Shown here piece after piece: positions 40,534 through 61,258 of a stretch of DNA of 64,000 bases. The notes under the pieces are model-generated. The model searched no databases, was not told the origin of the DNA, and saw nothing but the letters and a program-made list of their open reading frames with translations. Position 1 is the first letter of the stretch. Each line of letters opens with the position of its first letter. A program made the position numbers and the translations under genes. Source of the stretch: Flavobacteriales bacterium (GTDB lineage: Bacteria; Bacteroidota; Bacteroidia; Flavobacteriales_D; Parvicellaceae); assembly GCA_029251405.1 (NCBI GenBank), contig JAQXDK010000044.1, positions 5,118 to 69,117 of the forward strand. The letters run 5' to 3'.

Positions 40534-42156
40534 ATGTTTAAAAAATTTAACTTTTCTACTTTAAAAAACGACTTGCCAGCTGGATTGGTGGTATGGTTAG
40601 TCGCATTACCATTATGTTTAGGAATTGGTCAGGGATCTATACCTGTACCCGAAATGATTGACGGTTCCCTTCAAACAATCAAAGATCTAAAATTTATGAC
40701 TCCATTTTCTGGAATAATTGCAGGTATTATAGGAGGAATTATTGTGACTATTTTTAGTGGTTCAAAGTTCGGTGTAAGCGGGCCAGCTGCAGGTTTAATG
40801 TCGATTGTCTTAATTGCTGTTCCTGAAATTGGCTTTAGAGGTTTTTTATTAGCTGTTGTTTTATCTGGAGTTATACAATTTCTTCTTGGATTATTCAGAT
40901 TGGGTATAGTTGGTTATTTCATACCTACGTCTGTTATACATGGTATGTTAGCATCTATTGGAATAACTTTAATTTTAAAGCAAATTCCTCACGCTTTAGG
41001 GGTAGATAATGAACCTGAAGGTGAATTAGCATTTCAACAAGTAGATGGTGAAAATACTTTTTCAGAAATATTACTAAGTCTTGATAATTTAGCAATTGGT
41101 GCCTTTATAATCTTTTTAATATCAATGATTATTTTACTTGTTTGGGAGTTGCCAATTGTTAAAAAAAATGACAAATTAAAATTATTTCCGGTATCTCTTT
41201 TGGTTGTAGTTATAGGTGCTGTACTAAATCAATTATTTGGCTCAGTCGGAGGCGACTTTAGTGATATGACTTTTTTGGGATCTTCACATTTGGTCAACTT
41301 ACCTGATGCTTTGTCTAATGGTGACTATCAAAATCTAATTGTAACTCCTGATTTTTCTATGGAAGCATTTGCCAATAAGGATATCTATATTTATGCCATT
41401 ACTATTGCAATAGTTGCTAGTATTGAAACATTGCTTTGTTTAGAAGCAACTGATAAATTAGATCCTGATAAAAATATATCTCCTACAAATAAAGAGTTAA
41501 AAGCCCAAGGAATTGGAAATTTTTTATCTGGATTAATTGGCGGTTTGCCAGTTACGATGGTTATTGTGAGAAGTTCTGCTAATATAAATGCATATGCTAA
41601 AACAAAAATGTCTGCCTTTTATCATGGTGTTTTTCTACTCGGTAGTGTCTTTATTTTTCCAACTTTATTAGAGTTAATTCCTCTTTCTTCTTTAGCAGCT
41701 ATTTTAGTTTTAATAGGCTTTAAGCTGGTTAAAATAAAAAATATAATCAAGCTTTTTAAAACAGACTGGGAAAATGGATTAGTTATAGTTATCACAATTA
41801 TAGCAGTCTTAAGTACCGATTTATTGTCTGGTGTTGGGATCGGTTTTATAATTGCAATGTTTTTCTTATTAAGAAAGAATTATGAATTAGCTTTTATTTC
41901 CCATACAGATGAAGAAAAGAATAAAACAGTTATTTCTTTTGCTCAAATTGTTTCTTTCTTAAATAAAGGTGCACTAATGACTACGCTTCAAAACATTCCA
42001 GATGGTGGCTCTGTAAAAATAAGTGCTAAAAAATGTCATACAATGAGTAAAGAGATTCAAGAAGTTATTAAAGATTTTAGAGACATTAATAGTAAAAAGA
42101 AAAATATAAGTTTAGATCTAATAGGATTTGAAAAATTTTTTACTGAGGAAAATTAA
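40534..42156 (+). CDS. SulP-family anion transporter with C-terminal STAS domain
   Basis: Multi-TM core with typical SulP N-terminus (LKNDL.AGLVVWLVALPLCLGI) and a soluble STAS-like C-terminal domain of about 100 aa. Confidence 0.9.
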   Translation: MFKKFNFSTLKNDLPAGLVVWLVALPLCLGIGQGSIPVPEMIDGSLQTIKDLKFMTPFSGIIAGIIGGIIVTIFSGSKFGVSGPAAGLMSIVLIAVPEIGFRGFLLAVVLSGVIQFLLGLFRLGIVGYFIPTSVIHGMLASIGITLILKQIPHALGVDNEPEGELAFQQVDGENTFSEILLSLDNLAIGAFIIFLISMIILLVWELPIVKKNDKLKLFPVSLLVVVIGAVLNQLFGSVGGDFSDMTFLGSSHLVNLPDALSNGDYQNLIVTPDFSMEAFANKDIYIYAITIAIVASIETLLCLEATDKLDPDKNISPTNKELKAQGIGNFLSGLIGGLPVTMVIVRSSANINAYAKTKMSAFYHGVFLLGSVFIFPTLLELIPLSSLAAILVLIGFKLVKIKNIIKLFKTDWENGLVIVITIIAVLSTDLLSGVGIGFIIAMFFLLRKNYELAFISHTDEEKNKTVISFAQIVSFLNKGALMTTLQNIPDGGSVKISAKKCHTMSKEIQEVIKDFRDINSKKKNISLDLIGFEKFFTEEN

Positions 42157-43184
42157 AACACAATTGACTTAGGTATAATTCCAGTTGCTATTTCTTCTTT
42201 TAAATTTCCTGAGCTGTCGATTACGTATAAAATGCCATTTTGTACGTAATCTTTTGCATCCGTAATATATAGATCGTTGTTGTAAGGATTAATTTTTAAA
42301 TTATAAAAATTATTGGAGTTGTTTGACCATATTTTTGTAGCTAGGGTGTCATCTAAATTTCTAATTCTATATATGTGTTTATTTATAAAATAGACCTGGT
42401 TGGTTTGATTGTCAATGTCAATAGAAGTGGCATAGCTTTGGTTGTTCTCTAAATTAAACGATTTAAAGACCACATCATTTTCGGTTTCAATAATAGAAAT
42501 ACTAGAAAACTCATTATTAGAATTATCACCTTGGCACAATACCCAAAGATTTCCTCTTGAATCTTCTTTCATAGAGCTGGGGTTTTTTCCTGTTTGAATA
42601 CTGTCAATAATAATATCAGATACAGAATTAATTACATATACTTGGTTATTGGCAACATTACAAACGTATGCCTTTCCATTTTTAATAATTAAGTCTTCAC
42701 ACCAACCGTTTACACTTATCTTACTTGTAGTTTGGTCATAGTTGTTGTAAACGGAAATTTCATCAGCGTACAAATCTGTGATATAGAATTTTGAGTTATC
42801 TACTTTTGCTATTTTCCTTGGCGATGTAAGATTTTTAATTTCCATTTTCTTTTCAAGATTCTTATCATCTATAACTATGATTTTCCCAGAATTATTCACT
42901 ACCAGATAAAGTAAGTGATCTGAGTGATAAATACTGTGTAAAACATCTCCAATAGGTTCTTGATTGATCGATTGATATATGTTATTCAATACTTGTTTTG
43001 AATTTTCATTGTAAGAAGATAGTGATGCATTTCCGTTTTGAAAGTTACCTTCGTTTCCTATTAATACAAGTCCATTCCCATTTAAAGTAACATTGGTAAT
43101 GATTTCATCTGGATTTAATTTTATACATGAATACGTTGCAATAATTAAAAAACTAATGATTATAGAGTTTAATTTTTTCATCAT
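42153..43184 (-). CDS. Surface lipoprotein, YncE-like beta-propeller (candidate BtuG-like B12-capture protein)
   Basis: Lipobox IIATYSC. Repeated blade-like segments (LYLVVNNSGKIIVID, FYITDLYADEISVY, AYVCNVANNQVYVI, LWVLCQGD, VYFINKHIYRI, LYITDAKDYVQNGILYVID). Last gene of the riboswitch-controlled operon. Confidence 0.6.
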   Translation of the reverse strand: MMKKLNSIIISFLIIATYSCIKLNPDEIITNVTLNGNGLVLIGNEGNFQNGNASLSSYNENSKQVLNNIYQSINQEPIGDVLHSIYHSDHLLYLVVNNSGKIIVIDDKNLEKKMEIKNLTSPRKIAKVDNSKFYITDLYADEISVYNNYDQTTSKISVNGWCEDLIIKNGKAYVCNVANNQVYVINSVSDIIIDSIQTGKNPSSMKEDSRGNLWVLCQGDNSNNEFSSISIIETENDVVFKSFNLENNQSYATSIDIDNQTNQVYFINKHIYRIRNLDDTLATKIWSNNSNNFYNLKINPYNNDLYITDAKDYVQNGILYVIDSSGNLKEEIATGIIPKSIVF

Positions 43185-44173
43185 TTTAAAAATATTTTTT
43201 GTGAAAAATTCTGTGATTTTGAATGGATATTAAATAAATAAATTCCAGCACTTAAAGATTCAATATTTAGTTTGTGTTTTGATTGATGAGCTCCGTTTTC
43301 AATATTTTTGTTATATATAATTTCCCCAGTTAAATCTATGATGGAGATGTTAATTTTATTAATCGAAATATTATTGATTGAAAATTCAATGTAGTTATTA
43401 AAGACGCTTATTTTTTCAATTAATACCTGATTATCTACTTTCAATGGTTGTTCATGAATTACCCCAACCGCATCCAAATCAAAACCTGAAGAGGGGAAGG
43501 GTGTCGGAAAAGGATCGTTAATTAAATTACCTAGATGGTCGATGGTACCATAATTAGGATCAATAGAACCGACAACATCGATTATTTTTATGTGTGTTAT
43601 ATTATCTATATCTAAACCTGGCTCTAAATTCAATTCTTCTAAATCAAAAGGAGTACCATAATTTACTCTGTACTTTCCAGCTAGGTTATTAATTTTTTCA
43701 GCATCAACACTTCCAAATGCATCAATTTGTATGCTGTCTTGAGTCAAAGAAGTTGCCTCAAACCTGTAGTAATCTAATCCGTTACTACTCACTTCTACAA
43801 ATGCTAATTCTAGATAGGTATCGCTGAATGAATTTTCGAAAATTGCAAAATCCCAGCCATTTTCGTTTTTAATTGGTCTTTCAAAAGTAAGTATTGCATG
43901 TCCTCCATCTCCAAGGCTCATAATTCCGTTTCCAGGAGCCCCAGCAGCTAAAGAACTGTCACCAGCACTAGCTGTAATCGATTGGGGGTTAGAAATGTCT
44001 TCTAAACCAATATTAGCTGAGCAGCTTACAGCCCAATTTATAAAAACACTGCTATCCTTATGGATAGCAGTTGAGCCTTGCACTCCAGTAGCAGGTGCAA
44101 ATTGGGATTTTACTGTTAATAAGAATAGTAAATTAAATAATAGAATTAATTTATAATTTAAAAATACTTTCAT
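43181..44173 (-). CDS. Secreted protein of unknown function with T9SS C-terminal sorting domain (B12 operon member)
   Basis: Start set at ATG 44173 (MKVFLNYKLILLFNLLFLLTVKSQ). Conserved-looking core GWDFAIFENSF...LAFVEVSSNG..YYRF. C-terminal ...SAGIYLFNIHSKSQNFSQKIFLK is a T9SS CTD. Confidence 0.6.
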   Translation of the reverse strand: MKVFLNYKLILLFNLLFLLTVKSQFAPATGVQGSTAIHKDSSVFINWAVSCSANIGLEDISNPQSITASAGDSSLAAGAPGNGIMSLGDGGHAILTFERPIKNENGWDFAIFENSFSDTYLELAFVEVSSNGLDYYRFEATSLTQDSIQIDAFGSVDAEKINNLAGKYRVNYGTPFDLEELNLEPGLDIDNITHIKIIDVVGSIDPNYGTIDHLGNLINDPFPTPFPSSGFDLDAVGVIHEQPLKVDNQVLIEKISVFNNYIEFSINNISINKINISIIDLTGEIIYNKNIENGAHQSKHKLNIESLSAGIYLFNIHSKSQNFSQKIFLK

Positions 44174-45128
44174 TAATAATACCATCTTTAGATTCAAATT
44201 TCAAAATATACTGACCGTTAGGAAGATTGGAGATGTTTAATTGTTTGGTGTTCATTTGTTTTTCCAATATTTCTTCTCCTAAAATATTAAATAACGTGAC
44301 GGAATAATTAATTTCATTGTTAGTTTTAATAAAAAGAAATTCCGAAGATGGGTTGGGATAGATCTCTAAATCATATTCAGAAATATGATTATTTGATAGA
44401 GGATAATTCCCCACATTATCTATACAAAAATAGGCAGGGGTATTCATGCCAAATTGACCAACATCGCTTGAAGTTAACTTAAATTGAACACTGTCATAAA
44501 TATTTGGTCCTAATTCTATATATTGCCAGTCAGTCACTATATAATCCAAAGAACTGTCCGCATGAGTGAAATCTGCCAGGTAAAATTCTGTACTGTCGAT
44601 TAAAGTTCCGTTTGAATAACCGTAAATATGTATCTTAAAAAAATCTTGATCAACATTTGTGAACTTTTTAGCAAACGCATCACCATCCCTCATACTATTA
44701 GCAGCATAGGTAGAGTTGGATATGTTTACACTAAAGTTTTCTGGGTTATTGAGAACAACGGTTGAATTATTAGTTCCTACAGCATAATTAGCACCTCCAA
44801 TTCCATGTCCTCCTCCAGCTTTTGAACTGAATAGATTACCTGATCCTGACGTACTACTATCTGTTATATTAGAATAACTCCATCCAGTAGACCAATATCC
44901 GAAAACTGCACCGTAGGTAGTGTCGTAAGTATTAGAGAACTGATAGTCTCCAGCGTTAAAAGTACTATTAAACATTAAGTTATTATGCTGTCCTGATAGA
45001 TCTGATCCGTCCCAGTAAGATTCGGGTGTTAAATTTAGGTTCTCAAAATCAGCTACATTAATTTGAGCATAGAAATTTGTTAAAAATAAAGAAAAGATTA
45101 GAGTTGTAGAGTAGTAAAGTTTTTTCAT
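44151..45128 (-). CDS. DUF4465-like (BtuH-like) protein with T9SS C-terminal sorting domain
   Basis: N-terminus after the signal reads VADFENLNLTPESYWDGSDLSG, matching the remembered DUF4465 opening (FEDL.L...SYWNGSD). C-terminal IYPNPSSEFLFIKT...GQYILKFESKDGIINESIFKL is a T9SS CTD. Confidence 0.6.
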   Translation of the reverse strand: MKKLYYSTTLIFSLFLTNFYAQINVADFENLNLTPESYWDGSDLSGQHNNLMFNSTFNAGDYQFSNTYDTTYGAVFGYWSTGWSYSNITDSSTSGSGNLFSSKAGGGHGIGGANYAVGTNNSTVVLNNPENFSVNISNSTYAANSMRDGDAFAKKFTNVDQDFFKIHIYGYSNGTLIDSTEFYLADFTHADSSLDYIVTDWQYIELGPNIYDSVQFKLTSSDVGQFGMNTPAYFCIDNVGNYPLSNNHISEYDLEIYPNPSSEFLFIKTNNEINYSVTLFNILGEEILEKQMNTKQLNISNLPNGQYILKFESKDGIINESIFKL

Positions 45129-45133
45129 TGTTT

Positions 45134-47026
45134 TTATTTATTTAATTTAAGATTAAAGCCTATTTCGTGGTTAACCATGGGCATAGGCCTGTTAATTATT
45201 AATTGATAATTAATGTTGTATACATTATTAACCTTGTAAAATATTTTAGCAGTATTTTTATTTAATTGAACATTGTAGGTAACATAGATATTCCCCAGAT
45301 GAAAGGCTGGTAAATAATGGTTGTTGTCATTAGAGGTATATCTATATCCTGTGTAGTTGTGTATGTATGTTAAACTAATATTTTTATTAGTGTATTTAAA
45401 TTTGAAAATAAATTTATAATGTGGTGCATAGATAAGCTGTTTGTTTAAGATATCATTGTTGTAATTGTAGAAATCTGTATTGGTACTTATATTGTAAGCT
45501 GTTTTAGCAGTTAACAAAATATTTCCTTTTACTAACTGATGAGATAATTTAACAGAAGTTTCTAGTCCTCGATTCCATACACTTTTAACATTCATTGGAG
45601 ACCAAAAACCATCTCCTGGTTGCCATAATATCCAATTGTTTATCCATCTAGAGTAAACAGTAGGTTCAAAACTTAGTTTAATGTTGTTTTTAGAATATTT
45701 CCAAATGACACCTATGTCAGAGCTCCAGCCACTTTCAGGTTTCAAATTAAGATTTCCACCTGGATTCCAGTAAAGATCATTTATAGTTGGGAATCTATAC
45801 ACTTTCCCAAAATTTAAATACAAGTCTGTTCTTTTAAATATTTTTTTATTAAGTGAATAAGAGAAAGTCAATGGAGATAGATAGTTTTCGTCCAGCAACA
45901 CTCTAGAATTAAATAAATGATTCCAACTAGTATCGGATTTTTTTATTTTATAACTACTAGTTAAAGAGAGTCTGTTAACTTGAATCTTATCTAGATAATT
46001 ATTACCGTTAGTTTTCGCAATTAAATTTGTAAGGTTGATTTTTAAATGGTTAAAATCGTTGTATGTTTTTGAGAAAATAAGTTGATTAAGTAAGGTGTTG
46101 CAAGGGTTTGCGCTGTTGATAAATCGAAGTGAATCATTATAAGTATTAAATTCTCTGTAAAAAGCAGTTTTTAATTGTAAAAAATAATTTTTAAAAGGTT
46201 GCTTGAAGGATACAAAAATCCGATGATTTTCATCGTTCTGGACGGCATTTGACATAGATTCTAAAATAGTTTTAGGCACCTTTCTTTCTAATAATTGTCC
46301 TAAATATGTGATGTCAACTGCAATTTTTGAAAGTTGAATTTTTGAATCAATCATACATGCTATTTGATTTGTTGACGAATTTTCTTGACGTTTAAACTCA
46401 TCGTTGAAATCGAGATATCTAAAATTATTTTCAGCTTTTTGGCTAAAAAACTTTAAAGAAGTGCTTATTTTATTTCCTTTTAAATTAAATTTTATATAAT
46501 TGGTTTTTTGTTGGAATGAACCGTAACTACTGCCTGCTTCTAAAGAAGAAGTGTTGTTGCTATTTCCCTCTAGACATATTGCACCAGATAACCCACCATT
46601 TCCCCAACTAGAGCTTGGTAAACCGTATGTGAGGTTTACAGAATTGAAAAAAACTGAGGGAATCATAGATAAATCAACTAAACCATTTAGAGGATTATTT
46701 AAAAGAAAGTCGTTGTAAACAAGAGAAGTTTGTTGAGAATTACCTCCTCTAATAGAAATGCTACTTAAATTTCCTGGGCTGTAGGATTTTATATAATTTG
46801 TAGTTTCTCCTTCGATAATTGAAGAAATTGATTCACTGGTTCTTTCATCTTCTAAAATTAGATTTTTATCGGACTTTAAAAAATCATCGTTTAATAAGAA
46901 TCTCGACGTTGATTTTTCAAATGTTTTCAATTTTTTAACAGAGTCCATATTCTGTGAGAGATAACAACCATGTGTAAAAAATAGTACCAATACGATAATT
47001 AAGTATTTCATAACTTGCTTTATCAT
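45134..47026 (-). CDS. btuB: TonB-dependent receptor, BtuB-like (cobalamin riboswitch-controlled)
   Basis: 630-aa TBDR (plug SPGNLSSISIRGGNSQQTSLVYNDFLLNNP, beta-barrel) directly downstream of a cobalamin riboswitch on the same strand. Confidence 0.75.
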   Translation of the reverse strand: MIKQVMKYLIIVLVLFFTHGCYLSQNMDSVKKLKTFEKSTSRFLLNDDFLKSDKNLILEDERTSESISSIIEGETTNYIKSYSPGNLSSISIRGGNSQQTSLVYNDFLLNNPLNGLVDLSMIPSVFFNSVNLTYGLPSSSWGNGGLSGAICLEGNSNNTSSLEAGSSYGSFQQKTNYIKFNLKGNKISTSLKFFSQKAENNFRYLDFNDEFKRQENSSTNQIACMIDSKIQLSKIAVDITYLGQLLERKVPKTILESMSNAVQNDENHRIFVSFKQPFKNYFLQLKTAFYREFNTYNDSLRFINSANPCNTLLNQLIFSKTYNDFNHLKINLTNLIAKTNGNNYLDKIQVNRLSLTSSYKIKKSDTSWNHLFNSRVLLDENYLSPLTFSYSLNKKIFKRTDLYLNFGKVYRFPTINDLYWNPGGNLNLKPESGWSSDIGVIWKYSKNNIKLSFEPTVYSRWINNWILWQPGDGFWSPMNVKSVWNRGLETSVKLSHQLVKGNILLTAKTAYNISTNTDFYNYNNDILNKQLIYAPHYKFIFKFKYTNKNISLTYIHNYTGYRYTSNDNNHYLPAFHLGNIYVTYNVQLNKNTAKIFYKVNNVYNINYQLIINRPMPMVNHEIGFNLKLNK

Positions 47027-47090
47027 TTTGTATAACGTGGAAAGAAAAGGGGGTAGGTAAGGAAATGTTTGAAAATTCCTTAAACTACTA

Positions 47091-47275
47091 TCTAAAATTT
47101 AAAAGCTTCAATCCACGAAAGCTAACAGTTACTTATTGTGGCAGGTCTCCTGACTTGTTGAAATCTTATTACCTTCCCGTATTTAAAACAGTGGCATAAA
47201 AATAAGATCTTACTCAACTTACAGTTGCGGGACAGTTAATGATTTACACATTATTCCCTATTAATCTTGCGTATT
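47091..47275 (-). promoter_or_regulatory. Cobalamin (B12) riboswitch with candidate terminator expression platform
   Basis: Minus-strand RNA contains, in the canonical order: AAUAGGGAAUAAUGUGUAAAUCAUUAACUGUCCCGCAACUGUAAG, AUGCCACUG (47189-47195), CGGGAAGG, and the B12 box AGUCAGGAGACCUGCC (47140-47155). These are followed by the hairpin AGCUUU-CGUGGAUU-GAAGCU plus UUUUAAAUUUU. Confidence 0.9.
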
Positions 47276-47313
47276 GCAAAAACCAAAACAAGTGATAGTA
47301 AAATGAACTATTA

Positions 47314-47398: not shown

Positions 47399-50272
47399 AT
47401 GGAAATTAAGAAACCAATTCTTTTGAAGTTGTTAGTTGTTATACAATTTTCAATTTTGAATATCCTATCAATAAACGGTCAAAGTTCTTGGTCCACCTTT
47501 ATTGATTCAGTTTCAACTCTTTCTTCTCCAAGATCTACGGATTTAAATAATGATGGTGTTAAAGATATTGTGCTAGGAGCAGGAACAGATTCTACATACA
47601 GTAATTATGGGGTTGTTGCCTTAAATGGTATCTCAGGTCAATTATTATGGAGTTTACCAACACCCGATGAAATTTTCACTAGTGCTGTTTTTAACGATAT
47701 TAATAATGATAGTATACCCGACGTTTTTATAGGTGGTAGAAATGCTCAGCTTTATGCAATTGATGGTGTTAACGGTAATGTTATTTGGGAATTTTTCCCT
47801 CAAAATTTAGGTTTAAATCCATCTGATTCTGGTTGGTATAATTTTTATTCATCTCAAATATGTGATGATTATGATGGGGACAATGTAAATGATATTTTAG
47901 TCACCAACGGTGGAGATCATAAGGCAGCACCCTTTGATCCTAGACCACCAGGTTATTTAATGTTAATTAGTGGAGCTACTGGAAATTTAATTGCTAATGC
48001 TGTTTCACCAGATAGTGCTGAAATATATTCATCACCAGTTATTCTAGATAGAGCTGGAGGCATGTCTCCCAGTATTATCTTTGGCACTGGAGGAGAACAG
48101 CATGGTGGCGGAATGTATGTTACTAATTTTAACGACTTAATTAACGGAGACCTATCCAATGCCATAATCCTTACCAACCATCCTACAAAAGGTTTTATTG
48201 CACCAGCTTCAATTGCAGATGTTTCAGACGATAGTTTCTTAGATATAATTGTTCAGTCCTTTTCAGGAGAATTAACTGCTTTTGACGGTCTCACTTATCA
48301 ACCTTTATGGGTAAATTCATTTTCAGGTTGTGAATCTAGTGCAGCTCCAACAATTGGGAACTTTACGGGAGGAGATTTGATACCAGATGTGTTTACAGTA
48401 GTTTACCGAGGAACAACTCCCACATATTTTGATTACTATCAAGTAATGATTAACGGTTTAACAGGAGAAATTTCTTGGATGGATAGCATTGGTAGTATGC
48501 ATTTTTCGTCTTCTTCGGCCTTTGATGCAAATGGTGACGGAAGAGATGAAGTGCTGTTTAGTGTGAATTATATTTCTAATTACTTTTCTCATCAGTTGAA
48601 GTTGGTAGATTTTCAAAATGATACTGTCTTAGACATTACTCCGCTTTCAGCTGGAGTTAATTTAGGTTGTTCTCCACTCATTGATGATATTGACTCAGAC
48701 GGTTTAATAGAATTTATCTACACCTTCAAGTATGATAGCCTGAATCCAAGTGCTTGGAAAGGCTTTTATTTTAATAGATTGAATACAAACTATTTGGTTC
48801 CATCAAGAGGAATTGCTTGGGGTTGCTATATGGGAACCAACCATACAGGTCATTATAATAGAATGTTAAACTTATGCCCAAATTCAAATTTTGTTTCTAC
48901 TTGGAGCATAAATCATCCCTCATGTAATAATTTTAACGACGGATCTGTTTATCCAGCTATAATTAATACATCTCCAAATACTTTTTTATGGTCTGATGGA
49001 TCAGTCTCAGATACACTGCAAAATGTTGCCGCTGGAATACATACGCTCTTCATAACAGATACCAATAACTGTGTAGAGTACCATCAATTTCAATTAAATG
49101 ATCCTTATTATATATCTTTTGGAAATGTAAATCATAATAACTGTATCGGAGATTCTACAGGAACAGCTACTGTATCCAGTTCTGGATGTGTTTGTCAATT
49201 CAGTACATGCACTTATAATTGGGATAATGGATCTTTGATAAAGCATGCGACAAACCTTCAAGCAGGTATGCAACACGTTGTTATAACCCATGCTGATGGA
49301 TGTGTTGTTGAAGACTCAGTGTACATTAATGATGGACTTCCAGTCATAAATGGTTATTCTTTATCTCATAATTCTTGTTACAATTTAAATGATGCTTCAA
49401 TTAAATTGTATCCAAGTGATTCTACATCTACTTTTTATAATTGGTCTAATAACTCATCATCAGATTTTATCTCTCAGTTAAGTTCCGGCCAATACTCAGT
49501 ATATGTAAATAATAATTATTGTTCAGACTCTTTATTCTTCAATATTCAATCTCCAGACACTGTAAGATTAAGTTATTTATCTAATGATGTTCTTTGTTAT
49601 GGAGATTCAAATGGTGTAATTCAACTAAATCCATTAACTGGAATTTCTCCATTCAATTTTGTTTTTGATGGTTATATTTACAACGATTCTACGTTTGACA
49701 ATTTAATTGTTGGAACCTATCAAGTATATCTTAAGGATTCTTCAAATTGTAATTCAGATACTCTAGCAATTATAATCAATGAACCAGCTCCATTATTTTT
49801 TAATTCAAGTACTATTCCTGAATCTGATTCAGGATTTTTTGATGGAATGGCTACTTTGAATGTCGGTGGAGGCACCAGTCCTTATTCTTATTTTTGGGAC
49901 CATTTACCTGCAATTAATGATTCTGTTGTTATTTACTTATCTAATGGTTTTTACCCTTTTACAATCAATGACTCCAATGGGTGCTTACTTTCTGATTCGG
50001 TATTCATCGGAATTCTTTCCGAAATCAAAGAAATAGATCAAAATAAATTAAGTGTATATCCAATACCATCTAAAGGAAAAGTAATTGTTAAAAATGAGAG
50101 CGATTTAATTTCCATAGGACAATTATTTGATTTTACTGGCAAACGTTTTAAAGACGAATTTTTAATTCAACCACTTGAGAGTTACGAATTTCAACTTCCT
50201 TACGGAAACTATTTATTAAAACTTGTACAAGGAGATTTTACTACAATGCAAAAGCTTCTTATTATTGAATAA
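47399..50272 (+). CDS. Large secreted FG-GAP/PQQ-like beta-propeller plus SprB-repeat protein with T9SS C-terminal sorting domain
   Basis: N-terminal half has repeated DxNxDGxxD-type loops (DLNNDGVKDIVLG, NDINNDSIPDVFIG, DYDGDNVNDILV, DANGDGRDEVLF, DDIDSDGLIEFIY). Then five Cys-bearing SprB-type repeats. C-terminal LSVYPIPSKGKVIVKN...NYLLKLVQG is a T9SS CTD. Confidence 0.8.
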   Translation: MEIKKPILLKLLVVIQFSILNILSINGQSSWSTFIDSVSTLSSPRSTDLNNDGVKDIVLGAGTDSTYSNYGVVALNGISGQLLWSLPTPDEIFTSAVFNDINNDSIPDVFIGGRNAQLYAIDGVNGNVIWEFFPQNLGLNPSDSGWYNFYSSQICDDYDGDNVNDILVTNGGDHKAAPFDPRPPGYLMLISGATGNLIANAVSPDSAEIYSSPVILDRAGGMSPSIIFGTGGEQHGGGMYVTNFNDLINGDLSNAIILTNHPTKGFIAPASIADVSDDSFLDIIVQSFSGELTAFDGLTYQPLWVNSFSGCESSAAPTIGNFTGGDLIPDVFTVVYRGTTPTYFDYYQVMINGLTGEISWMDSIGSMHFSSSSAFDANGDGRDEVLFSVNYISNYFSHQLKLVDFQNDTVLDITPLSAGVNLGCSPLIDDIDSDGLIEFIYTFKYDSLNPSAWKGFYFNRLNTNYLVPSRGIAWGCYMGTNHTGHYNRMLNLCPNSNFVSTWSINHPSCNNFNDGSVYPAIINTSPNTFLWSDGSVSDTLQNVAAGIHTLFITDTNNCVEYHQFQLNDPYYISFGNVNHNNCIGDSTGTATVSSSGCVCQFSTCTYNWDNGSLIKHATNLQAGMQHVVITHADGCVVEDSVYINDGLPVINGYSLSHNSCYNLNDASIKLYPSDSTSTFYNWSNNSSSDFISQLSSGQYSVYVNNNYCSDSLFFNIQSPDTVRLSYLSNDVLCYGDSNGVIQLNPLTGISPFNFVFDGYIYNDSTFDNLIVGTYQVYLKDSSNCNSDTLAIIINEPAPLFFNSSTIPESDSGFFDGMATLNVGGGTSPYSYFWDHLPAINDSVVIYLSNGFYPFTINDSNGCLLSDSVFIGILSEIKEIDQNKLSVYPIPSKGKVIVKNESDLISIGQLFDFTGKRFKDEFLIQPLESYEFQLPYGNYLLKLVQGDFTTMQKLLIIE
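48908..50011 (+). repeat. Five tandem SprB-type coding repeats (about 70-75 aa each)
   Basis: Repeat openings HPSCNNFNDGSV, HNNCIGDSTGTA, HNSCYNLNDASI, NDVLCYGDSNGVI, ESDSGFFDGMAT. Each closes with a ...C.... motif about 50 aa later. Confidence 0.6.
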
Positions 50273-56539: not shown

Positions 56540-57889
56540 ATGAAATTAACAGTAAAAAAAGGCCTAGATATTAATATTAAAGGCGCCCCTGAGATGGTGT
56601 TATCAGATGCTTCTACAAAAGAATTTGCATTAAAGCCATCTGACTTTCCCAATTTAGTTCCCAAATTATTAGTTAAAGAAGGTGACACTGTTAAATGTGG
56701 TACATCAGTATTTTGCGATAAGTATAATGATAAAATCAACTTTTCGTCACCTGTAAGTGGCACAATTGATAAAATAGTTAGAGGAGAAAAAAGAAGAATT
56801 TTAGCTGTTACTATAATTTCAGATGATAAATTTACTCAAGAAAATATTGGTACCAAAGATTACACGAAACTTAATAAAGAAGAACTAAAAAGTGACCTTC
56901 TTAAAATGGGTCTTTGGCCATTCTTAAGAATGAGACCTATAGATATTATTGCACAACCTAACGATAATCCTAAATCAATATTTGTTTCTGGTTTTGATTC
57001 AAGTCCTCTGTCTCCGGATTATGATTTTTTAATGAAAGATAAGTCTGCTGAATTCAATGCTGGATTGGAGCTTTTAAATATGCTTACCGATGGAAAAGTA
57101 CATTTGCAAACCAGAAATAAATCCAGTGAAGTTTTTACAAATGCAAAAAACGTCCAGAGAAACATTGTTAAAGGTCCTCACCCAGCAGGAAATGTTGGAA
57201 CACAAATCCATGAAATTGATCCGATTAACAAAGGTGAAGTAGTTTGGTATATCAACCCACAGGATGTTTTAATTATGGGAAGGTTTTCATTAACTGGTGT
57301 TTATGATGCTCGTAAAACAATAGCTTTAGTAGGTGAAGGGACATCAGAAAAAAAATATTTCAATACAGTTTCTGGTTGTTCTATCGACTCTATTTTATCA
57401 AATTCTAAAGTAGAAGATAACAGTAGAATATTATCTGGTAATCCACTTACTGGTGAAAAAGTCGAAAAAAATGGATTTCTTGGTTTTTATCATCATCAAA
57501 TTTCCGTTCTACCCGAAGGAAACCAACATAAATTTTTCCTTACTGAAGGTTGGTTAAGTTTGGGATTCAATAAGTTTTCAGCATCCAAATCTTACCCTAC
57601 TTGGTTACTGCCTAAATCTAAATCCTACAATTTTGATACAAATTTAAATGGAGAGGAGAGAGCATTTGTTGTTTCTGGACAATATGAAAAAGTATTTCCA
57701 TTTGATATTTACCCTGTTCAGTTAATAAAATCAATTGTTACTAACGATATTGAAAAGATGGAAAATTTAGGGATCTATGAAGTTGCACCAGAAGATTTTG
57801 CACTTTGTGAATTTGTTTGCACTTCTAAAATCAATGTTCAAAACATTGTAAGGGAAGGATTAGATTTAGTTTATAAAGAATGTATGTAA
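56540..57889 (+). CDS. nqrA: Na+-translocating NADH:quinone oxidoreductase subunit A
   Basis: MKLTVKKGLDI.I.G.P opening typical of NqrA, about 450 aa, first gene of a six-gene nqr order. Confidence 0.95.
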   Translation: MKLTVKKGLDINIKGAPEMVLSDASTKEFALKPSDFPNLVPKLLVKEGDTVKCGTSVFCDKYNDKINFSSPVSGTIDKIVRGEKRRILAVTIISDDKFTQENIGTKDYTKLNKEELKSDLLKMGLWPFLRMRPIDIIAQPNDNPKSIFVSGFDSSPLSPDYDFLMKDKSAEFNAGLELLNMLTDGKVHLQTRNKSSEVFTNAKNVQRNIVKGPHPAGNVGTQIHEIDPINKGEVVWYINPQDVLIMGRFSLTGVYDARKTIALVGEGTSEKKYFNTVSGCSIDSILSNSKVEDNSRILSGNPLTGEKVEKNGFLGFYHHQISVLPEGNQHKFFLTEGWLSLGFNKFSASKSYPTWLLPKSKSYNFDTNLNGEERAFVVSGQYEKVFPFDIYPVQLIKSIVTNDIEKMENLGIYEVAPEDFALCEFVCTSKINVQNIVREGLDLVYKECM

Positions 57890-57905
57890 TTTAAAATATA
57901 TTAAA

Positions 57906-59144
57906 TTGGAATTTTTAAGAAAAATATTTGATAATGCCCACGAAAAGCTCAACTCTAATGAGAAAACTAAAAAGTTTTTTCCTCTTATAGATGCTTTCGA
58001 TACTTTAATGTTTACACCTAACCATGTTACTAATAAAGGCTCACACATCAGAGACGCAATTGATTTAAAGAGAACAATGATGTTGGTTATAATTGCTTTA
58101 ATACCTTGTTTGTTATTTGGCATATACAACACTGGATACCAGCACTTTAGAGTTTTAGATCAGTTGGGTGATGTTTCTTTTTGGGAAATCATTCTTAAAG
58201 GAGCTCTTGTTGTTTTACCTCTCGTTGTAGTATCTTATGGAGCAGGTCTTTTAGTTGAATTTATATTTGCTATTAGAAATGGACACACTGTTCAAGAAGG
58301 TTTTTTAGTATCTGGTATGTTGATTCCGCTTTGTATGCCTGCAGACGTTCCTTTATGGATGGTTGCTGTAGCTACCATGTTTGCAGTCGTTATTGGTAAA
58401 GAAGTTTTTGGAGGTACAGGCATGAATATATTAAACGTTGCTCTTACTGCAAGGGCTTTCTTATTTTTCGCACATCCAACTAAAATGTCGGGAAACGAAG
58501 TTTGGGTTACTGGTTTTTCAGATCTGAAAGGTGAAAAATATGCATCCTTAATAAATAGTTCAAATCCACAAGGTATTGTAGACGGAAGTTCAGGAGCCAC
58601 TGCCCTTGGTGATTTGGCTTCATTTATGCAAGATTCTCCAGTTTTAGAAAATACTCAAGCATTTCAAGCCAAATACTCATTAATGGATTCTTTTTTAGGA
58701 TTTATCCCAGGTTCAGTCGGTGAAACTTCAGCTTTAATGTGTTTAATTGGCGCTGGTATACTATTATGGACAGGAATCGCAAGTTGGAGAGTTATTTCCT
58801 CATTTTTTATTGGTGGTTTTATAATGGCCAGTATTTTAAATTTTGTTGGTGGTAATGGTTATTTCGAATTACCTGCAATTCATCAATTAATGCTAGGTGG
58901 TTTCATGTTTGGAATGGTATTTATGGCAACTGATCCGGTTACTGCAGCACATACCAACACGGGTAAATTTATTTATGGTTTTCTTGGAGGATTTTTAGGT
59001 ATACTTATAAGAATGGTAAATCCTGCGTACCCTGAAGGAATAATGTTAGCAATATTAATCGCAAATGTTTTTGCTCCTTTAATTGATCACATGGTTATTC
59101 AAAGTAATATTAACAGACGTTTAAAACGTTTAAAAACTGCATAA
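57906..59144 (+). CDS. nqrB: Na+-NQR subunit B
   Basis: Polytopic membrane protein. FPLIDAFDTLMFTP, FMN-attachment region SGATALG, TDPVTA motif. TTG start. Confidence 0.95.
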   Translation: MEFLRKIFDNAHEKLNSNEKTKKFFPLIDAFDTLMFTPNHVTNKGSHIRDAIDLKRTMMLVIIALIPCLLFGIYNTGYQHFRVLDQLGDVSFWEIILKGALVVLPLVVVSYGAGLLVEFIFAIRNGHTVQEGFLVSGMLIPLCMPADVPLWMVAVATMFAVVIGKEVFGGTGMNILNVALTARAFLFFAHPTKMSGNEVWVTGFSDLKGEKYASLINSSNPQGIVDGSSGATALGDLASFMQDSPVLENTQAFQAKYSLMDSFLGFIPGSVGETSALMCLIGAGILLWTGIASWRVISSFFIGGFIMASILNFVGGNGYFELPAIHQLMLGGFMFGMVFMATDPVTAAHTNTGKFIYGFLGGFLGILIRMVNPAYPEGIMLAILIANVFAPLIDHMVIQSNINRRLKRLKTA

Positions 59145-59145
59145 A

Positions 59146-59904
59146 ATGGCTATAAATAAAGACAGTAACACATACACCATCAGTTTTGCAATAGTTTTAG
59201 TAGTAATTGTTGGTGGGCTCTTAGCAATGATTGCTAATGGTTTAAAACCTATTCAGGATGAAAATTTAATGAATGAAAAAAAGCAAAATATATTAAATTG
59301 TCTTCCAGGTAACAAAGCAATATCTAGAGACGAAGCAGGTTCTGTTTTTTCAGACTTTGTAAAACAGAGAGTAATATTGGATTACAACGGTAAAATCAAA
59401 GACAACACACTTTTAGATAACTCAGTAGAGTTAAACAATAAAAATACAAATGATGCATTCAGTGTTGATCTTTTGAAAGAATACAAAACTATAAAAGATC
59501 AAGAGTCTAGAAATTACCCACTTTACATTTGCGATGTTAAAGGACAAACCTATTATGTTGCTCCGGTAATGGGAAAAGGGTTGTGGGCAGCTGTCTGGGG
59601 ATTTATAGCTCTAGATGACTTAGGAAACAAAATTTCAGGAACAGTTTTTGATCACAAGTCTGAAACGCCTGGATTAGGTGCAGAAATTTCTCAAGATTTC
59701 TTTGAAGATCAATTCATTGGTAAGCTTATTTCCAATAATAATGATTTCAAATCTATTGAAGTTAACAAACCAGGAAACCCATTGAATGATTACCAAGTAG
59801 ATGGAATTAGTGGAGGTACATTTACTAGTGTTGGTGTTGAAGAAATGATGAGTAGAACATTAGTTGTTTACCATAAGTATATTAAAAATTTAAATAAATC
59901 TTAA
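59146..59904 (+). CDS. nqrC: Na+-NQR subunit C
   Basis: Single N-terminal TM helix, ETPGLG motif, FMN-attachment motif [10 protein letters not shown]. Confidence 0.95.
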
Positions 59905-59914
59905 TCTTCAAAAT

Positions 59915-60616: not shown

Positions 60617-60624
60617 TATTTATT

Positions 60625-61239: not shown

Positions 61240-61258
61240 TTTGATTAATAGTTTATAA

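What the first reader, a model, noticed from the sequence alone, without database searches (positions are those of the whole stretch)
42153..47026. Riboswitch-controlled B12-capture operon whose accessory proteins are T9SS cargo rather than lipoproteins
- Four co-directional, overlapping or near-abutting genes follow a textbook cobalamin riboswitch: a BtuB-like TBDR, a DUF4465-like protein, an unknown 330-aa protein, and a beta-propeller lipoprotein.
- This order mirrors my recollection of the Bacteroides thetaiotaomicron locus btuB-btuH(DUF4465)-X-btuG(beta-propeller), where the accessory proteins are surface lipoproteins.
- Here the two middle proteins have ordinary signal peptides (no lipobox Cys) and end in type-A T9SS sorting domains. 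Only the propeller keeps a lipobox.
- That implies a B12-scavenging surface complex assembled through two different export and anchoring routes, which to my knowledge has not been studied.
- No btuCDF-type inner-membrane step is present in the operon.
Basis: partly seen in the sequence, partly recalled or inferred. Interest (0 to 1): 0.72.

Follow-up and report, generated by a model that had tools for sequence, protein, structure and literature searches.

The report
B12-uptake operon with T9SS-exported helpers
A vitamin-B12-sensing RNA switch controls a four-gene B12 uptake operon in a marine Flavobacteriales genome in which the transporter's lid protein is lipid-anchored but the two helper proteins (one a known B12 binder type, one an unnamed family) are exported by the type IX secretion system, and this layout recurs in many environmental Bacteroidota.

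Summary
A full-length cobalamin riboswitch (47123-47302, minus strand, 114.5 bits) precedes four tightly packed minus-strand genes.

- **Gene 1:** a Bacteroidota-type BtuB.
- **Gene 2:** a DUF4465 protein with a type-A T9SS C-terminal domain (CTD).
- **Gene 3:** a 330-aa protein with an unnamed N-domain ("P3N") plus a CTD.
- **Gene 4:** a lipobox-bearing BtuG propeller.

DUF4465 is BtuJ, not BtuH, and the B. thetaiotaomicron gene order differs from what was recalled.

The arrangement is not a curiosity of this window. At least 580 matching stretches in species-representative genomes encode a P3 relative. In the 80 best loci:

- 29 show the same order, BtuB > DUF4465 > P3 > BtuG.
- 61 carry a cobalamin riboswitch.
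- BtuG is essentially always a lipoprotein without a CTD.
- DUF4465 and P3 are signal-peptidase-I substrates with CTDs.

P3N has no Pfam family and no solved relative. It is fused in other genomes to DUF4465, DUF4430 and BtuG-like propellers. In Planctomycetota it carries PEP-CTERM tails instead of CTDs.

No paper I could search links T9SS to B12 capture. My verdict is a new variant of a known system, plus a candidate new B12-linked domain family. Corrinoid binding by P3N and the final location of the cargo remain untested.

The parts
47123..47302 (-). Cobalamin riboswitch aptamer (RF00174)
   Evidence: cmscan gives 114.5 bits against a gathering score of 31.5, E = 6.1e-28, full model 1-189.
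47027..47122 (-). Leader / presumed expression platform between the aptamer and the btuB start codon
   Evidence: Sequence read. The fold is no better than shuffled sequence (z = -0.67), and no terminator-like site was found here. The control mechanism is unresolved.
45134..47026 (-). btuB-like TonB-dependent transporter (630 aa)
   Evidence: Pfam Plug at 31.6 bits and barrel at 72.2 bits. The only PDB sequence relatives are B. theta BtuB2, BtuB3 and BtuB1 (8P97_A 2.7e-39, 8BMX_C, 8BLW_A).
44151..45128 (-). BtuJ-type DUF4465 protein with a T9SS CTD (325 aa). Layout: signal peptide aa 1-21, DUF4465 domain about aa 25-243 (44400-45056), CTD about aa 256-325 (44154-44363).
   Evidence: PF14717 at 137.6 bits, PF18962 at 47.6 bits, TIGR04183 at 43.9 bits. 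PDB matches: 9HMU 7.1e-16, 4JQR 2e-14, BtuJ2 9I2L 9.7e-10. The NTPAY loop is retained (N229, Y233). The exact protein is NCBI MDG1440813.1, from a Flavobacteriales MAG.
43181..44173 (-). P3: unnamed 'P3N' domain protein with a T9SS CTD (330 aa from the ATG at 44173; the ORF could extend to a TTG at 44197). Layout: signal peptide aa 1-23, P3N about aa 24-244 (43442-44104), CTD about aa 250-330 (43184-43426).
   Evidence: PF18962 at 35.0 bits and TIGR04183 at 28.3 bits. No Pfam hit for the N-domain. No PDB relative by sequence or by profile. The AF2 model has pLDDT 80.6: a beta-rich N-domain plus a 7-strand C-terminal sandwich. The family has 2,512 representative clusters.
42153..43184 (-). btuG-like seven-bladed propeller lipoprotein (343 aa). 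The lipobox Cys20 is encoded at 43125-43127.
   Evidence: phmmer gives 6.8e-40 to 8P97_B over residues 6-340, followed by 11 further BtuG/'YncE family'/surface-layer propeller sequences (rows 2-12). The N-terminus is MMKKLNSIIISFLIIATYS-C-IKLNPDE. No CTD is present.
44048..44071 (-). Terminator-like hairpin inside the 5' part of P3 (10-bp stem, 4-nt loop, then GTTTTTAT). Its role is uncertain.
   Evidence: Found, with dG = -16.1 kcal/mol. The hairpin is identical in L001 and L003 but decayed in other lineages. It arises because the codons for T-A-I are the reverse complement of those for D-S-S in the conserved TAIHKDSS motif.

Best explanation
This is a cobalamin-riboswitch-controlled outer-membrane B12 capture and import operon of a marine Flavobacteriales bacterium.

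**Regulation.** When intracellular cobamide is low the riboswitch lets the four translationally coupled genes be expressed. The presence of the aptamer is shown. The direction and mechanism of control are inferred from characterised cobalamin riboswitches.

**Core import machine.** BtuB and BtuG form the core, as in Bacteroides. BtuG is a surface lipoprotein whose lipid anchor and linker act as the hinge of a lid on BtuB. This explains why it alone keeps a lipobox (inferred from homology and from PMC10404256).

**Two accessory proteins take a different route.** They cross the inner membrane through Sec and signal peptidase I, and then cross the outer membrane through the type IX secretion system by means of their type-A CTDs. 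They end up either covalently anchored on the surface or released into the medium (inferred).
- One is a BtuJ-type DUF4465 beta-jellyroll that retains the corrin-contacting NTPAY loop. It very probably binds corrinoids tightly and hands them on to BtuG/BtuB.
- The other (P3) carries an unnamed domain, P3N. I propose P3N is a further corrinoid-binding or relay module.

**Why the routes differ.** Lineages that have a T9SS attach these peripheral scavenger modules through a CTD. Gut Bacteroides attach them through a lipobox plus a lipoprotein export signal. Planctomycetota attach them through PEP-CTERM.
For: **Identity of the parts.**
- Riboswitch.
- BtuB homology restricted to the Bacteroides BtuB1-3 transporters.
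- BtuG homology at 6.8e-40.
- DUF4465 and CTDs above curated thresholds.
- NTPAY loop aligned to BtuJ2 (9I2L), and N229/T230/P231/Y233 invariant in alignment A3. This motif and B12 binding across eight DUF4465 proteins are reported in PMC13398666.

**Operon integrity.**
- Window gene junctions of +5, -23 and -4 nt.
- Median gaps of 4, -0.5 and -4 nt across related loci.

**Conservation across genomes.**
- At least 580 matching stretches in species-representative genomes encode a P3 relative.
- 29 of the 80 best loci show BtuB > DUF4465 > P3 > BtuG.
- A cobalamin riboswitch was found by Rfam in 11 of 12 sampled loci and by nhmmer in 61 of 80. Of the 62 hits, 59 lie directly upstream of the cluster.

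**Export routes.**
- BtuG: 54 of 58 complete ORFs were called lipobox without CTD. The other three CTD-less ones show a Cys, or are an ORF fragment, on inspection.
- DUF4465 and P3: mature ends begin '...A|Q', and nearly all complete ORFs have a CTD. The Bacteroidetes Q-rule for signal-peptidase-I substrates is described in PMC5837995.
- The P3 CTD is modelled as a 7-strand sandwich.

**P3N linked to B12.**
- Solo P3 genes sit behind their own riboswitch in L050, L051, L056 and L071.
- Fusions to DUF4465, DUF4430 and a BtuG-like propeller.
- Planctomycetota fusions of P3N and DUF4465 with PEP-CTERM tails.

**T9SS in this organism.** Six CTD-bearing ORFs lie in the 64-kb window.
Against: - No binding, localisation or expression data exist for any of these proteins.
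- P3N has no detectable similarity to any solved B12 binder, so corrinoid binding rests on association only.
- B. theta BtuL sits at a comparable operon position and does not bind cobalamin (PMC12751083), so an operon member need not be a binder.
- The T9SS machinery itself is not in the window.
- The expression platform shows no significant structure.
- A strong hairpin with a T-run inside P3 could partly uncouple P3 and btuG from btuB and btuJ.
- The window BtuG has only a weak lipoprotein export signal (K at +2, D/E at +6 and +7).
Confidence: 0.8

Rival explanations
1. P3 is part of the B12 regulon but does not bind corrinoids. It would be an accessory factor: for example an adaptor that docks the BtuJ-like protein to the cell surface or to BtuBG, a vesicle or surface-organisation factor analogous to B. 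theta BtuL, or an enzyme that frees corrinoids from other carriers.
For: - BtuL is encoded just upstream of BtuG2 in B. theta operon 2, is riboswitch-co-regulated, and shows no cobalamin binding (PMC12751083; PMC13616437).
- P3N shows no similarity to BtuG, BtuH, BtuJ or BtuK structures.
- P3N is repeatedly fused next to known binders. This would also fit a role as a common docking module.
Against: - Solo P3 genes sit behind their own cobalamin riboswitch with no neighbouring binder (L050, L051, L056, L071).
- Tandem P3N-P3N proteins exist.
- Many invariant aromatic and acidic or amide residues suggest a ligand pocket.
- P3N is not detectably related to the receptor-L-domain type of fold reported for BtuL. 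That is a description from the literature; I had no BtuL sequence to test.
Confidence: 0.35
2. The two middle proteins are periplasmic B12 shuttles, as the DUF4465 literature assumes for non-lipoprotein members. On this reading the C-terminal 'CTD' matches are non-functional Ig-like domains.
For: - PMC13398666 describes the roughly 30% of DUF4465 proteins that are not lipoproteins as 'bearing periplasmic targeting signals'.
- No BtuF gene is in the operon, so a periplasmic binder would fill a gap.
Against: - Both CTDs exceed the curated cut-offs of PF18962 and TIGR04183 and lie at the extreme C-terminus.
- They match the 75-residue CTD chains of PDB entries 8GLK and 8GLJ.
- CTDs are retained in nearly all of about 120 DUF4465 homologues, about 120 P3 homologues and the 80 loci.
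- In Planctomycetota the same modules carry PEP-CTERM surface-sorting tails instead. This argues for an extracellular role.
Confidence: 0.05
3. The riboswitch controls only btuB and the btuJ-like gene. On this reading P3 and btuG are transcribed or attenuated separately, because of the hairpin with a T-run at 44071-44048 and a possible internal promoter just upstream of P3.
For: - A 10-bp perfect stem followed by GTTTTTAT, dG = -16.1, is identical in L001 and L003 although their P3 proteins are only about 59% identical to the window's.
- A promoter-like site lies at 44204-44176.
- Internal promoters are reported in the B. theta btu operons (PMC12751083).
Against: - The hairpin is inside the coding sequence of a conserved motif whose codons are inherently self-complementary, and it decays in most lineages (median MFE -5.7 over 77 loci).
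- Translating ribosomes would tend to melt it.
- The sigma-70 consensus scan is not appropriate for Bacteroidota promoters, and it found fewer sites than in shuffled sequence (24 against 33.3).
- btuG is the obligate partner of btuB, and in variant loci it follows btuB directly under the same riboswitch.
Confidence: 0.12

Closest known systems
Bacteroides thetaiotaomicron btu loci 1 and 2 (BtuB-BtuG core plus the surface lipoproteins BtuJ, BtuH, BtuK and BtuL). Sources: PMC6143338, PMC10404256, PMC12751083, PMC13616437.
   Same: - Cobalamin riboswitch control.
- A BtuB transporter homologous to BtuB1-3.
- A BtuG propeller lipoprotein.
- A DUF4465/BtuJ-type binder with the NTPAY loop.
- Additional accessory protein(s) of unclear role in the same operon.
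   Different: - Here the BtuJ-type protein and the extra protein are Sec/SPI substrates with type-A T9SS CTDs rather than SPII lipoproteins with export signals.
- The gene order differs.
- No BtuH, BtuK or BtuL homologue is detectable.
- No btuFCD genes are in the operon.
- The extra protein (P3N) belongs to a family not described in those papers.
DUF4465 / IPR027828 B12-binding beta-jellyroll family (BtuJ1 9FCT, BtuJ2 9I2L, D5EK51 9HMU). Source: PMC13398666.
   Same: - The Pfam model matches at 137.6 bits.
- There is direct sequence similarity to 9HMU, 4JQR and 9I2L.
- The conserved NTPAY HI-loop is present.
- The gene is linked to a TBDR and a beta-propeller.
   Different: - The published description divides the family into lipoproteins (more than 70%) and proteins with 'periplasmic targeting signals'.
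- The window protein and all but one of its 120 closest relatives instead carry a T9SS sorting domain.
- Tandem DUF4465 forms and DUF4465-P3N fusions also occur.
T9SS type-A CTD cargo such as P. gingivalis gingipains and HBP35. These are secreted and then attached to A-LPS or released. Sources: PMC12094164; PMC11285876 abstract.
   Same: - An N-terminal Sec signal followed by Gln.
- A C-terminal Ig-like 7-strand sorting domain above the TIGR04183 threshold.
- The functional domain lies in between.
   Different: - Known cargo are mostly proteases, adhesins, glycanases and a hemin-binding protein.
- Riboswitch-regulated vitamin-capture cargo that partners a TonB-dependent transporter was not described in the papers I could search.
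'Choice-of-anchor' surface domains. These are domains found with different C-terminal sorting signals in different lineages. The concept comes from NCBIfam/TIGRFAMs naming and is cited from my own knowledge.
   Same: P3N and DUF4465 occur with a T9SS CTD in Bacteroidota and with PEP-CTERM tails in Planctomycetota. DUF4465 also occurs with lipoboxes in gut Bacteroides.
   Different: No NCBIfam choice-of-anchor model matched P3. This is an analogy of behaviour, not family membership.

Membership tests
Cobalamin riboswitch (RF00174) | Covariance-model score at or above the gathering threshold over the full aptamer | tested here: met
   114.5 bits against 31.5, model positions 1-189 of 189, E = 6.1e-28.
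Cobalamin riboswitch (RF00174) | An expression platform (terminator or start-site sequestering helix) that couples ligand binding to gene expression | tested here: inconclusive
   The leader fold has z = -0.67 against shuffles. No terminator-like site lies in the leader.
Bacteroidota BtuB (TonB-dependent B12 transporter that pairs with BtuG) | Plug plus 22-strand barrel architecture, with homology to BtuB1, BtuB2 and BtuB3 | tested here: met
   Pfam Plug and barrel above cut-offs. The only PDB sequence hits are 8P97_A, 8P98_A, 8BMX_C and 8BLW_A (2.7e-39 to 2.1e-12).
Bacteroidota BtuB (TonB-dependent B12 transporter that pairs with BtuG) | Co-operonic BtuG partner under a cobalamin riboswitch | tested here: met
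   and 57 of 80 related loci.
Proteobacterial BtuB equivalog (TIGR01779) | Score above the curated equivalog cut-off | tested here: not met
   28.2 bits against a cut-off of 599.7. I therefore do not file it as the E. coli-type BtuB equivalog.
BtuG | Full-length homology to the solved BtuG seven-bladed propellers | tested here: met
   6.8e-40 to 8P97_B over residues 6-340, followed by 11 further BtuG-type propeller sequences (rows 2-12).
BtuG | N-terminal lipobox Cys followed by a lipoprotein export signal (surface lipoprotein) | tested here: met
   Cys20 follows the hydrophobic region, then IKLNPDE. 54 of 58 complete homologues in related loci were called lipobox without CTD, typically with C-K/R-K-D. 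Whether the weak window export signal works was not tested.
   No hit at E <= 0.1. The model does hit the CTD-bearing propeller of L057.
BtuG | Conservation of the corrin-contacting residues of BtuG2 | not tested
   The residue list is in supplementary figures that I did not have.
BtuJ / DUF4465 (PF14717) | Pfam model above the gathering score | tested here: met
   137.6 bits against 25.
BtuJ / DUF4465 (PF14717) | Conserved NTPAY HI-loop supplying the corrin-contacting Asn and Tyr | tested here: met
   GMNTPAYFCIDNV aligns to GLNTPAYICIDDI of 9I2L. The residues are invariant in alignment A3. The motif is described in PMC13398666.
BtuJ / DUF4465 (PF14717) | SPII lipoprotein signal plus export signal, as in B. 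theta BtuJ1 and BtuJ2 | tested here: not met
   There is no Cys in the signal peptide, the predicted cleavage is FYA|Q, and the protein carries a T9SS CTD instead. It is a member of the domain family but a different export variant.
BtuJ / DUF4465 (PF14717) | High-affinity corrinoid binding | not testable with these tools
   This needs recombinant protein.
T9SS type-A CTD cargo (TIGR04183 / PF18962) | CTD model above the curated cut-off at the extreme C-terminus | tested here: met
   P2: 43.9 bits against 23 and 47.6 against 27. P3: 28.3 against 23 and 35.0 against 27. Both end within about 9 residues or fewer of the C-terminus.
T9SS type-A CTD cargo (TIGR04183 / PF18962) | N-terminal Sec/SPI signal peptide (Q-rule in Bacteroidota) | tested here: met
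   Read directly. The same '...A|Q' pattern is seen across the loci. The Q-rule is from PMC5837995. No SignalP-type predictor was available.
T9SS type-A CTD cargo (TIGR04183 / PF18962) | Ig-like seven-strand beta-sandwich fold of the CTD | tested here: met
   The AF2 model of P3 has seven strands between residues 252 and 329. P2 was not modelled.
T9SS type-A CTD cargo (TIGR04183 / PF18962) | T9SS machinery present in the genome, and secretion dependent on it | not testable with these tools
   Only cargo is visible: six CTD-bearing ORFs in the window. The machinery genes are not in the 64 kb.
BtuH (considered for P3) | Homology to the globular B12-binding domain of BtuH2 (7BIZ) | tested here: not met
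   No hit to 7BIZ by phmmer or by the A1 profile at E <= 10. 7BIZ is not among the top 50 Foldseek matches. The structural comparison is weak because the two-domain model dominated the matches.
BtuL (considered for P3) | Large repetitive receptor-L-domain lipoprotein | not tested
   No BtuL sequence or structure was available in the tools. P3N is a single domain of about 220 aa and is not repetitive.

The most novel reading that the evidence does not exclude
P3N is a previously unrecognised, structurally distinct corrinoid-binding domain, which would make it a further class alongside BtuG, BtuH, BtuJ and BtuK. Together with CTD-tagged BtuJ it is secreted by the T9SS as a released or loosely attached 'corrinophore', which lets environmental Bacteroidota harvest picomolar B12 away from the cell. 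Planctomycetota would do the same through PEP-CTERM. On this reading T9SS activity becomes a determinant of vitamin B12 competition in seawater, sediments and soil.
Probability: 0.35. Interest if true: 0.78.

Novelty: new variant of a known kind. Interest (0 to 1): 0.58.

Why it matters
- **Ecology.** B12 is scarce and limits growth in the ocean. Many Flavobacteriia are thought to be auxotrophs (background from my own knowledge, not checked here), yet all mechanistic work on Bacteroidota B12 scavenging comes from gut Bacteroides, which display their binders as lipoproteins.
- **A different default arrangement.** The survey indicates that in environmental Bacteroidota (Flavobacteriales, Chitinophagales, Saprospiraceae, Sphingobacteriaceae and non-gut Bacteroidales) only the BtuG lid is lipid-anchored. 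The peripheral scavengers are T9SS cargo.
- **Consequences.**
  - T9SS would be linked to micronutrient acquisition.
  - The published reading that non-lipoprotein DUF4465 proteins are periplasmic would be challenged for the Bacteroidota members examined here, which carry T9SS sorting domains.
  - B12 scavenging in these bacteria would be predicted to fail in T9SS mutants.
- **A new target.** The work also flags a large unnamed family (P3N, at least 2,512 representative clusters, no Pfam model). Its riboswitch linkage and its fusions to three different B12-system modules make it a prime candidate for a new corrinoid-handling protein.

Tried and rejected
1. **P3 as BtuH-like.** phmmer and the 44-sequence profile against all PDB sequences matched only CTDs. 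Rejected at the sequence level.
2. **P3N as a cryptic DUF4465.** hhalign probability was 0.1%. Rejected.
3. **Foldseek of the full-length P3 model against the PDB.** The top hits were generic two-domain 'jellyroll plus Ig' proteins (GH2 glucuronidases, the Bap BSP domain) at TM of about 0.2. Uninformative.
4. **AF2 model of the P3N domain alone.** With 19 trimmed sequences the model reached only pLDDT 49.3.
5. **Pfam and NCBIfam on P3N.** Pfam gave nothing. NCBIfam gave only a weak, sub-threshold but consistent hint to the Leptospira LIC_13355 lipoprotein family (18 of 19 members, best E = 4.8e-5). The one paper on that protein reports host-component binding, which does not help here.
6. **The roughly 425-aa CTD proteins.** These replace DUF4465 in variant loci. 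The profile against PDB and NCBIfam matched only the CTD. They remain unidentified.
7. **Expression platform.** The fold is not better than shuffles.
8. **Sigma-70 promoter scan.** It found fewer sites than in shuffled sequence, and the consensus does not suit Bacteroidota. Disregarded.
9. **My automated lipobox caller.** It produced false 'LIPO' calls for some DUF4465 and P3 proteins, where a Cys sits inside the hydrophobic core ahead of an A|Q cleavage site. I corrected these by inspection.

Full report
**1. What is in the window**

Rfam places a complete cobalamin riboswitch aptamer at 47123-47302 on the minus strand. It scores 114.5 bits against a gathering score of 31.5.

Ninety-six nucleotides downstream, four minus-strand ORFs follow:
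- 45134-47026 (630 aa)
- 44151-45128 (325 aa)
- 43181-44197 (338 aa from a TTG; 330 aa from the ATG at 44173, which matches the MK... start of its homologues)
- 42153-43184 (343 aa)

The junctions are a 5-nt gap, a 23-nt overlap and an ATGA 4-nt overlap. No intergenic terminator can follow the transporter gene.

The flanking genes are unrelated:
- a convergent SulP permease,
- a divergent FG-GAP/SprB-repeat protein,
- a gamma-glutamyltranspeptidase.

No btuFCD-like genes occur in the 64 kb. The window is 31% G+C. The exact 325-aa protein is NCBI MDG1440813.1 from a 'Flavobacteriales bacterium' metagenome-assembled genome.

**2. Identity of the four proteins**

*Protein 1* has Plug and TonB-dependent barrel domains. 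Its only relatives among all PDB sequences are the B. thetaiotaomicron BtuB2, BtuB3 and BtuB1 transporters (2.7e-39 to 2.1e-12). It falls far short of the proteobacterial BtuB equivalog model (28 bits against 599.7). It is therefore a Bacteroidota-type BtuB.

*Protein 4* matches chain B, the propeller partner of BtuB2, in the BtuB2-BtuG2 complex 8P97 at 6.8e-40 over residues 6-340. Eleven further BtuG-type propeller sequences follow it in the table.
- Its N-terminus (MMKKLNSIIISFLIIATYS-C-IKLNPDE) has a lipobox-type Cys20, and it has no CTD.

*Protein 2* matches Pfam DUF4465 at 137.6 bits and the T9SS sorting domain models PF18962 and TIGR04183 at 47.6 and 43.9 bits.
- It aligns to the B12-bound DUF4465 structures 9HMU and 9I2L.
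- It keeps the 'NTPAY' loop (GMNTPAYFCIDNV against GLNTPAYICIDDI) that provides the corrin-contacting Asn and Tyr (motif described in PMC13398666).

*Protein 3* has a CTD above both curated thresholds (35.0 and 28.3 bits). Its roughly 220-aa N-domain, which I call P3N, matches nothing in Pfam and nothing in the PDB by sequence or by profile.

Proteins 2 and 3 both have ordinary signal peptides with predicted cleavage before Gln (FYA|Q and VKS|Q). This is the Bacteroidetes 'Q-rule' signature of signal-peptidase-I substrates (PMC5837995).

**3.

- In the literature DUF4465 is BtuJ (BT1491, BT1957). BtuH is a different globular B12-binding domain (PMC13616437).
- The rest of the description stands.

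**4. How general is it?**

*Homologue searches.*
- A homologue search for protein 2 returned 120 top hits. All but one carry DUF4465 plus PF18962, and they include roughly 545-aa tandem-DUF4465 forms.
- Of the top 120 hits for protein 3, 118 carry PF18962.

The 80 best loci come from:
- Flavobacteriales, Crocinitomicaceae and Parvicellaceae,
- Chitinophagales, Saprospiraceae and Sphingobacteriaceae,
- environmental Bacteroidales.

*Annotation of the 80 loci with my own HMMs.*

| Feature next to P3 | Loci (of 80) |
|---|---|
| BtuG | 57 |
| BtuB-like TBDR | 57 |
| DUF4465 | 45 |
| Exact order BtuB > DUF4465 > P3 > BtuG | 29 |
| Alternative order P3 > BtuB > BtuG | 9 |

- Median intergenic distances are 4, -0.5 and -4 nt.
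- Many of the loci that seem to lack partners are truncated contigs.

*Riboswitches.*
- Rfam found a cobalamin riboswitch in 11 of 12 sampled loci.
- An nhmmer profile found one in 61 of 80 loci, and 59 of its 62 hits lie directly upstream of the cluster.

**5. Export routes are partitioned consistently**

*BtuG.* Of 58 complete BtuG ORFs:
- 54 were called lipobox without CTD, typically ...S-C-K/R-K-D....
- Three further CTD-less ORFs were not called. Two of these visibly have the Cys on inspection, and the third is an ORF fragment.
- One, in L057, is an extra CTD-bearing propeller beside a normal lipidated BtuG.

*DUF4465 and P3.* Their mature ends begin after '...A|Q', and nearly all complete ORFs carry a CTD. 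My script's 'LIPO' calls for these are Cys residues inside the hydrophobic core and are false positives. The single clear exception is L027, where DUF4465 has a lipobox (QS-C-EKDD) and no CTD.

*Why only BtuG keeps the lipobox.* The BtuB2-BtuG2 structure offers a rationale. The lipidated Cys and the linker of BtuG are held by BtuB loops and act as the hinge of the lid (PMC10404256). That N-terminal anchor is therefore part of the machine, whereas peripheral scavengers can be attached by any means.

*Is a T9SS present?* The window holds six CTD-bearing ORFs, so the organism evidently runs a T9SS. From my own knowledge (McBride and Zhu 2013, not checked here), gut Bacteroides such as B. thetaiotaomicron lack a T9SS. 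That would explain why they use lipoprotein export for the same modules.

**6. What is P3?**

*Fold.* The AF2 model has pLDDT 80.6, with 85-95 over most of the N-domain. It shows a beta-rich N-domain followed by a seven-strand CTD sandwich.

*Structure and profile comparisons gave no neighbour.*
- Foldseek with the two-domain model gave only generic jellyroll-plus-Ig matches at low TM.
- A domain-only model failed.
- P3N is not a diverged DUF4465 (hhalign probability 0.1%).
- The one faint lead is a sub-threshold match to the Leptospira LIC_13355 lipoprotein family, seen in 18 of 19 members.

*Family size.* An exhaustive HMMER search found 2,512 representative clusters, 1,006 of them at E <= 1e-30.

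*Architectures among the best 150.*
- 125 have a recognisable CTD. This is a lower bound.
- The forms include P3N-CTD, tandem P3N, DUF4465-P3N-CTD and P3N-DUF4465-CTD.
- Others are DUF4430-P3N-CTD, PKD or fn3 giants, and BtuG-like propeller-P3N-CTD.
- DUF4430 is the transcobalamin-like C-terminal domain family (from my own knowledge).
- The propeller fusion is P0322, WP_308991219.1 from Mariniflexile litorale. It parallels the BtuG-BtuH fusion BT1490 of B. theta (PMC13616437).

*A different anchor outside Bacteroidota.* In Planctomycetota, P3N-DUF4465 fusions end in PEP-CTERM tails such as ...VPEPSTLALLTTASFGAVWLLRRRRA (P0269, MCE5302958.1).

*Own riboswitch.* Solo P3 genes sit directly behind their own cobalamin riboswitch in L050, L051, L056 and L071.

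Taken together, P3N is an extracellular module of the B12 regulon that follows whichever surface-sorting system its host uses. Whether it binds corrinoids itself (my estimate is about 50%) or serves as an adaptor or BtuL-like non-binder is open.

**7. Mechanism proposed**

*Shown:*
- aptamer,
- gene identities,
- sorting signals,
- conservation across genomes.

*Inferred:*
- Low cobamide de-represses the operon.
- BtuB and BtuG assemble as a lidded transporter.
- The BtuJ-type protein and P3 are exported by the T9SS. They are then either anchored after CTD removal, as for P. gingivalis cargo (PMC12094164), or released.
- They capture corrinoids and pass them to BtuG/BtuB.
- Inner-membrane transport is encoded elsewhere.

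*Unresolved:*
- The expression platform is not identified.
- A hairpin with a T-run inside P3 (44071-44048) is identical in L001 and L003. It stems from self-complementary codons of the TAIHKDSS motif and decays elsewhere. I regard it as probably incidental.

**8. Novelty and literature**

- None of the BtuG, BtuH, BtuJ or DUF4465 papers held in the library mentions T9SS or Flavobacteria.
- PMC13398666 classifies non-lipoprotein DUF4465 members as having 'periplasmic targeting signals'.
- Searches combining T9SS with BtuB and cobalamin, with BtuG, or with vitamin B12 and riboswitch found no study of this link.
- However, the DUF4465-plus-CTD architecture is visible in public annotation, and swapping a lipobox for a CTD is a familiar theme in Bacteroidota.

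I therefore rate this a new variant of a known system rather than something categorically new. The P3N family is the component most likely to yield a real discovery.

**9. Scores**

| Item | Value |
|---|---|
| Confidence in the operon-level explanation | 0.80 |
| Interest | 0.58 |
| Probability of the most novel reading (P3N as a new corrinoid-binding class, secreted as a T9SS 'corrinophore') | about 0.35 |
| Interest of that reading if true | about 0.78 |

Noticed in passing
window 44048-44071 (-): A perfect 10-bp hairpin followed by a T-run lies inside the P3 coding sequence (dG = -16.1). It encodes the conserved TAIHKDSS motif. It is identical in L001 and L003 although their proteins are only about 59% identical to the window's, and it has decayed in other lineages.
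   Followed up: partly
window 42153-42156 and 42219-42251: btuG and the convergent SulP permease gene overlap by 4 nt at their stop codons. A 15-bp palindrome with a T-run on the plus strand lies inside the btuG 3' coding region and looks like a terminator for the SulP gene. Comparable structure and the same convergent overlap are seen in L001 and L002.
   Followed up: partly
L010:6623-7891, L011:6745-8001, L033:6696-7976, L036:6637-7920, L044:6551-7849, L047:1901-3181, L059:3915-5201, L060:86-1369, L080:475-1779: In variant loci ordered X > P3 > BtuB > BtuG, DUF4465 is replaced by a roughly 425-aa T9SS-CTD protein. Its roughly 340-aa N-domain has no Pfam, NCBIfam or PDB match, even when searched as a profile (alignment A4). 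This is a third unknown family of cargo linked to B12 loci.
   Followed up: partly
L057:6706-7998 (Aequorivita MAG); P0322 (Mariniflexile litorale WP_308991219.1): BtuG-like (DUF5074) propellers exist that carry a T9SS CTD instead of a lipobox. One sits beside a normal lipidated BtuG. The other is fused to P3N, which recalls the BtuG-BtuH fusion of B. theta.
   Followed up: partly
P0269 (Planctomycetaceae MCE5302958.1), P0317, P0283: P3N and DUF4465 fusion proteins outside Bacteroidota end in PEP-CTERM-type sorting tails (VPEP..., a hydrophobic stretch, then RRRR). The same capture modules therefore use a third anchoring system.
   Followed up: partly
P0250 (474 aa, metagenomic): A DUF4430 domain is fused to P3N and a CTD. 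To my knowledge DUF4430 is the transcobalamin-like C-terminal B12-binding domain family.
   Followed up: no
window 47399-50272 (+); L001:1822-4707, L002:1844-4726, L003:1821-4685: A roughly 957-aa FG-GAP/SprB-repeat protein with a T9SS CTD is divergently transcribed from the riboswitch region. It is conserved at that position in the three closest loci. No link to B12 is evident.
   Followed up: no
window 1651-4404 (-), 4464-5186 (-), 9882-12191 (+): Three further ORFs in the window carry T9SS CTDs, making six in 64 kb.
   Followed up: no
P3N alignment A2 against NCBIfam NF033170: There is a weak but consistent similarity (18 of 19 members, best E = 4.8e-5, far below the cut-off) between part of P3N and the Leptospira LIC_13355 surface lipoprotein family.
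   Followed up: partly
window 56540-62554 (+): A run of six co-directional genes looks like a Na+-translocating NADH:quinone reductase (nqr) operon, judged from ORF sizes and N-termini only. I ran no family search on it.
   Followed up: no
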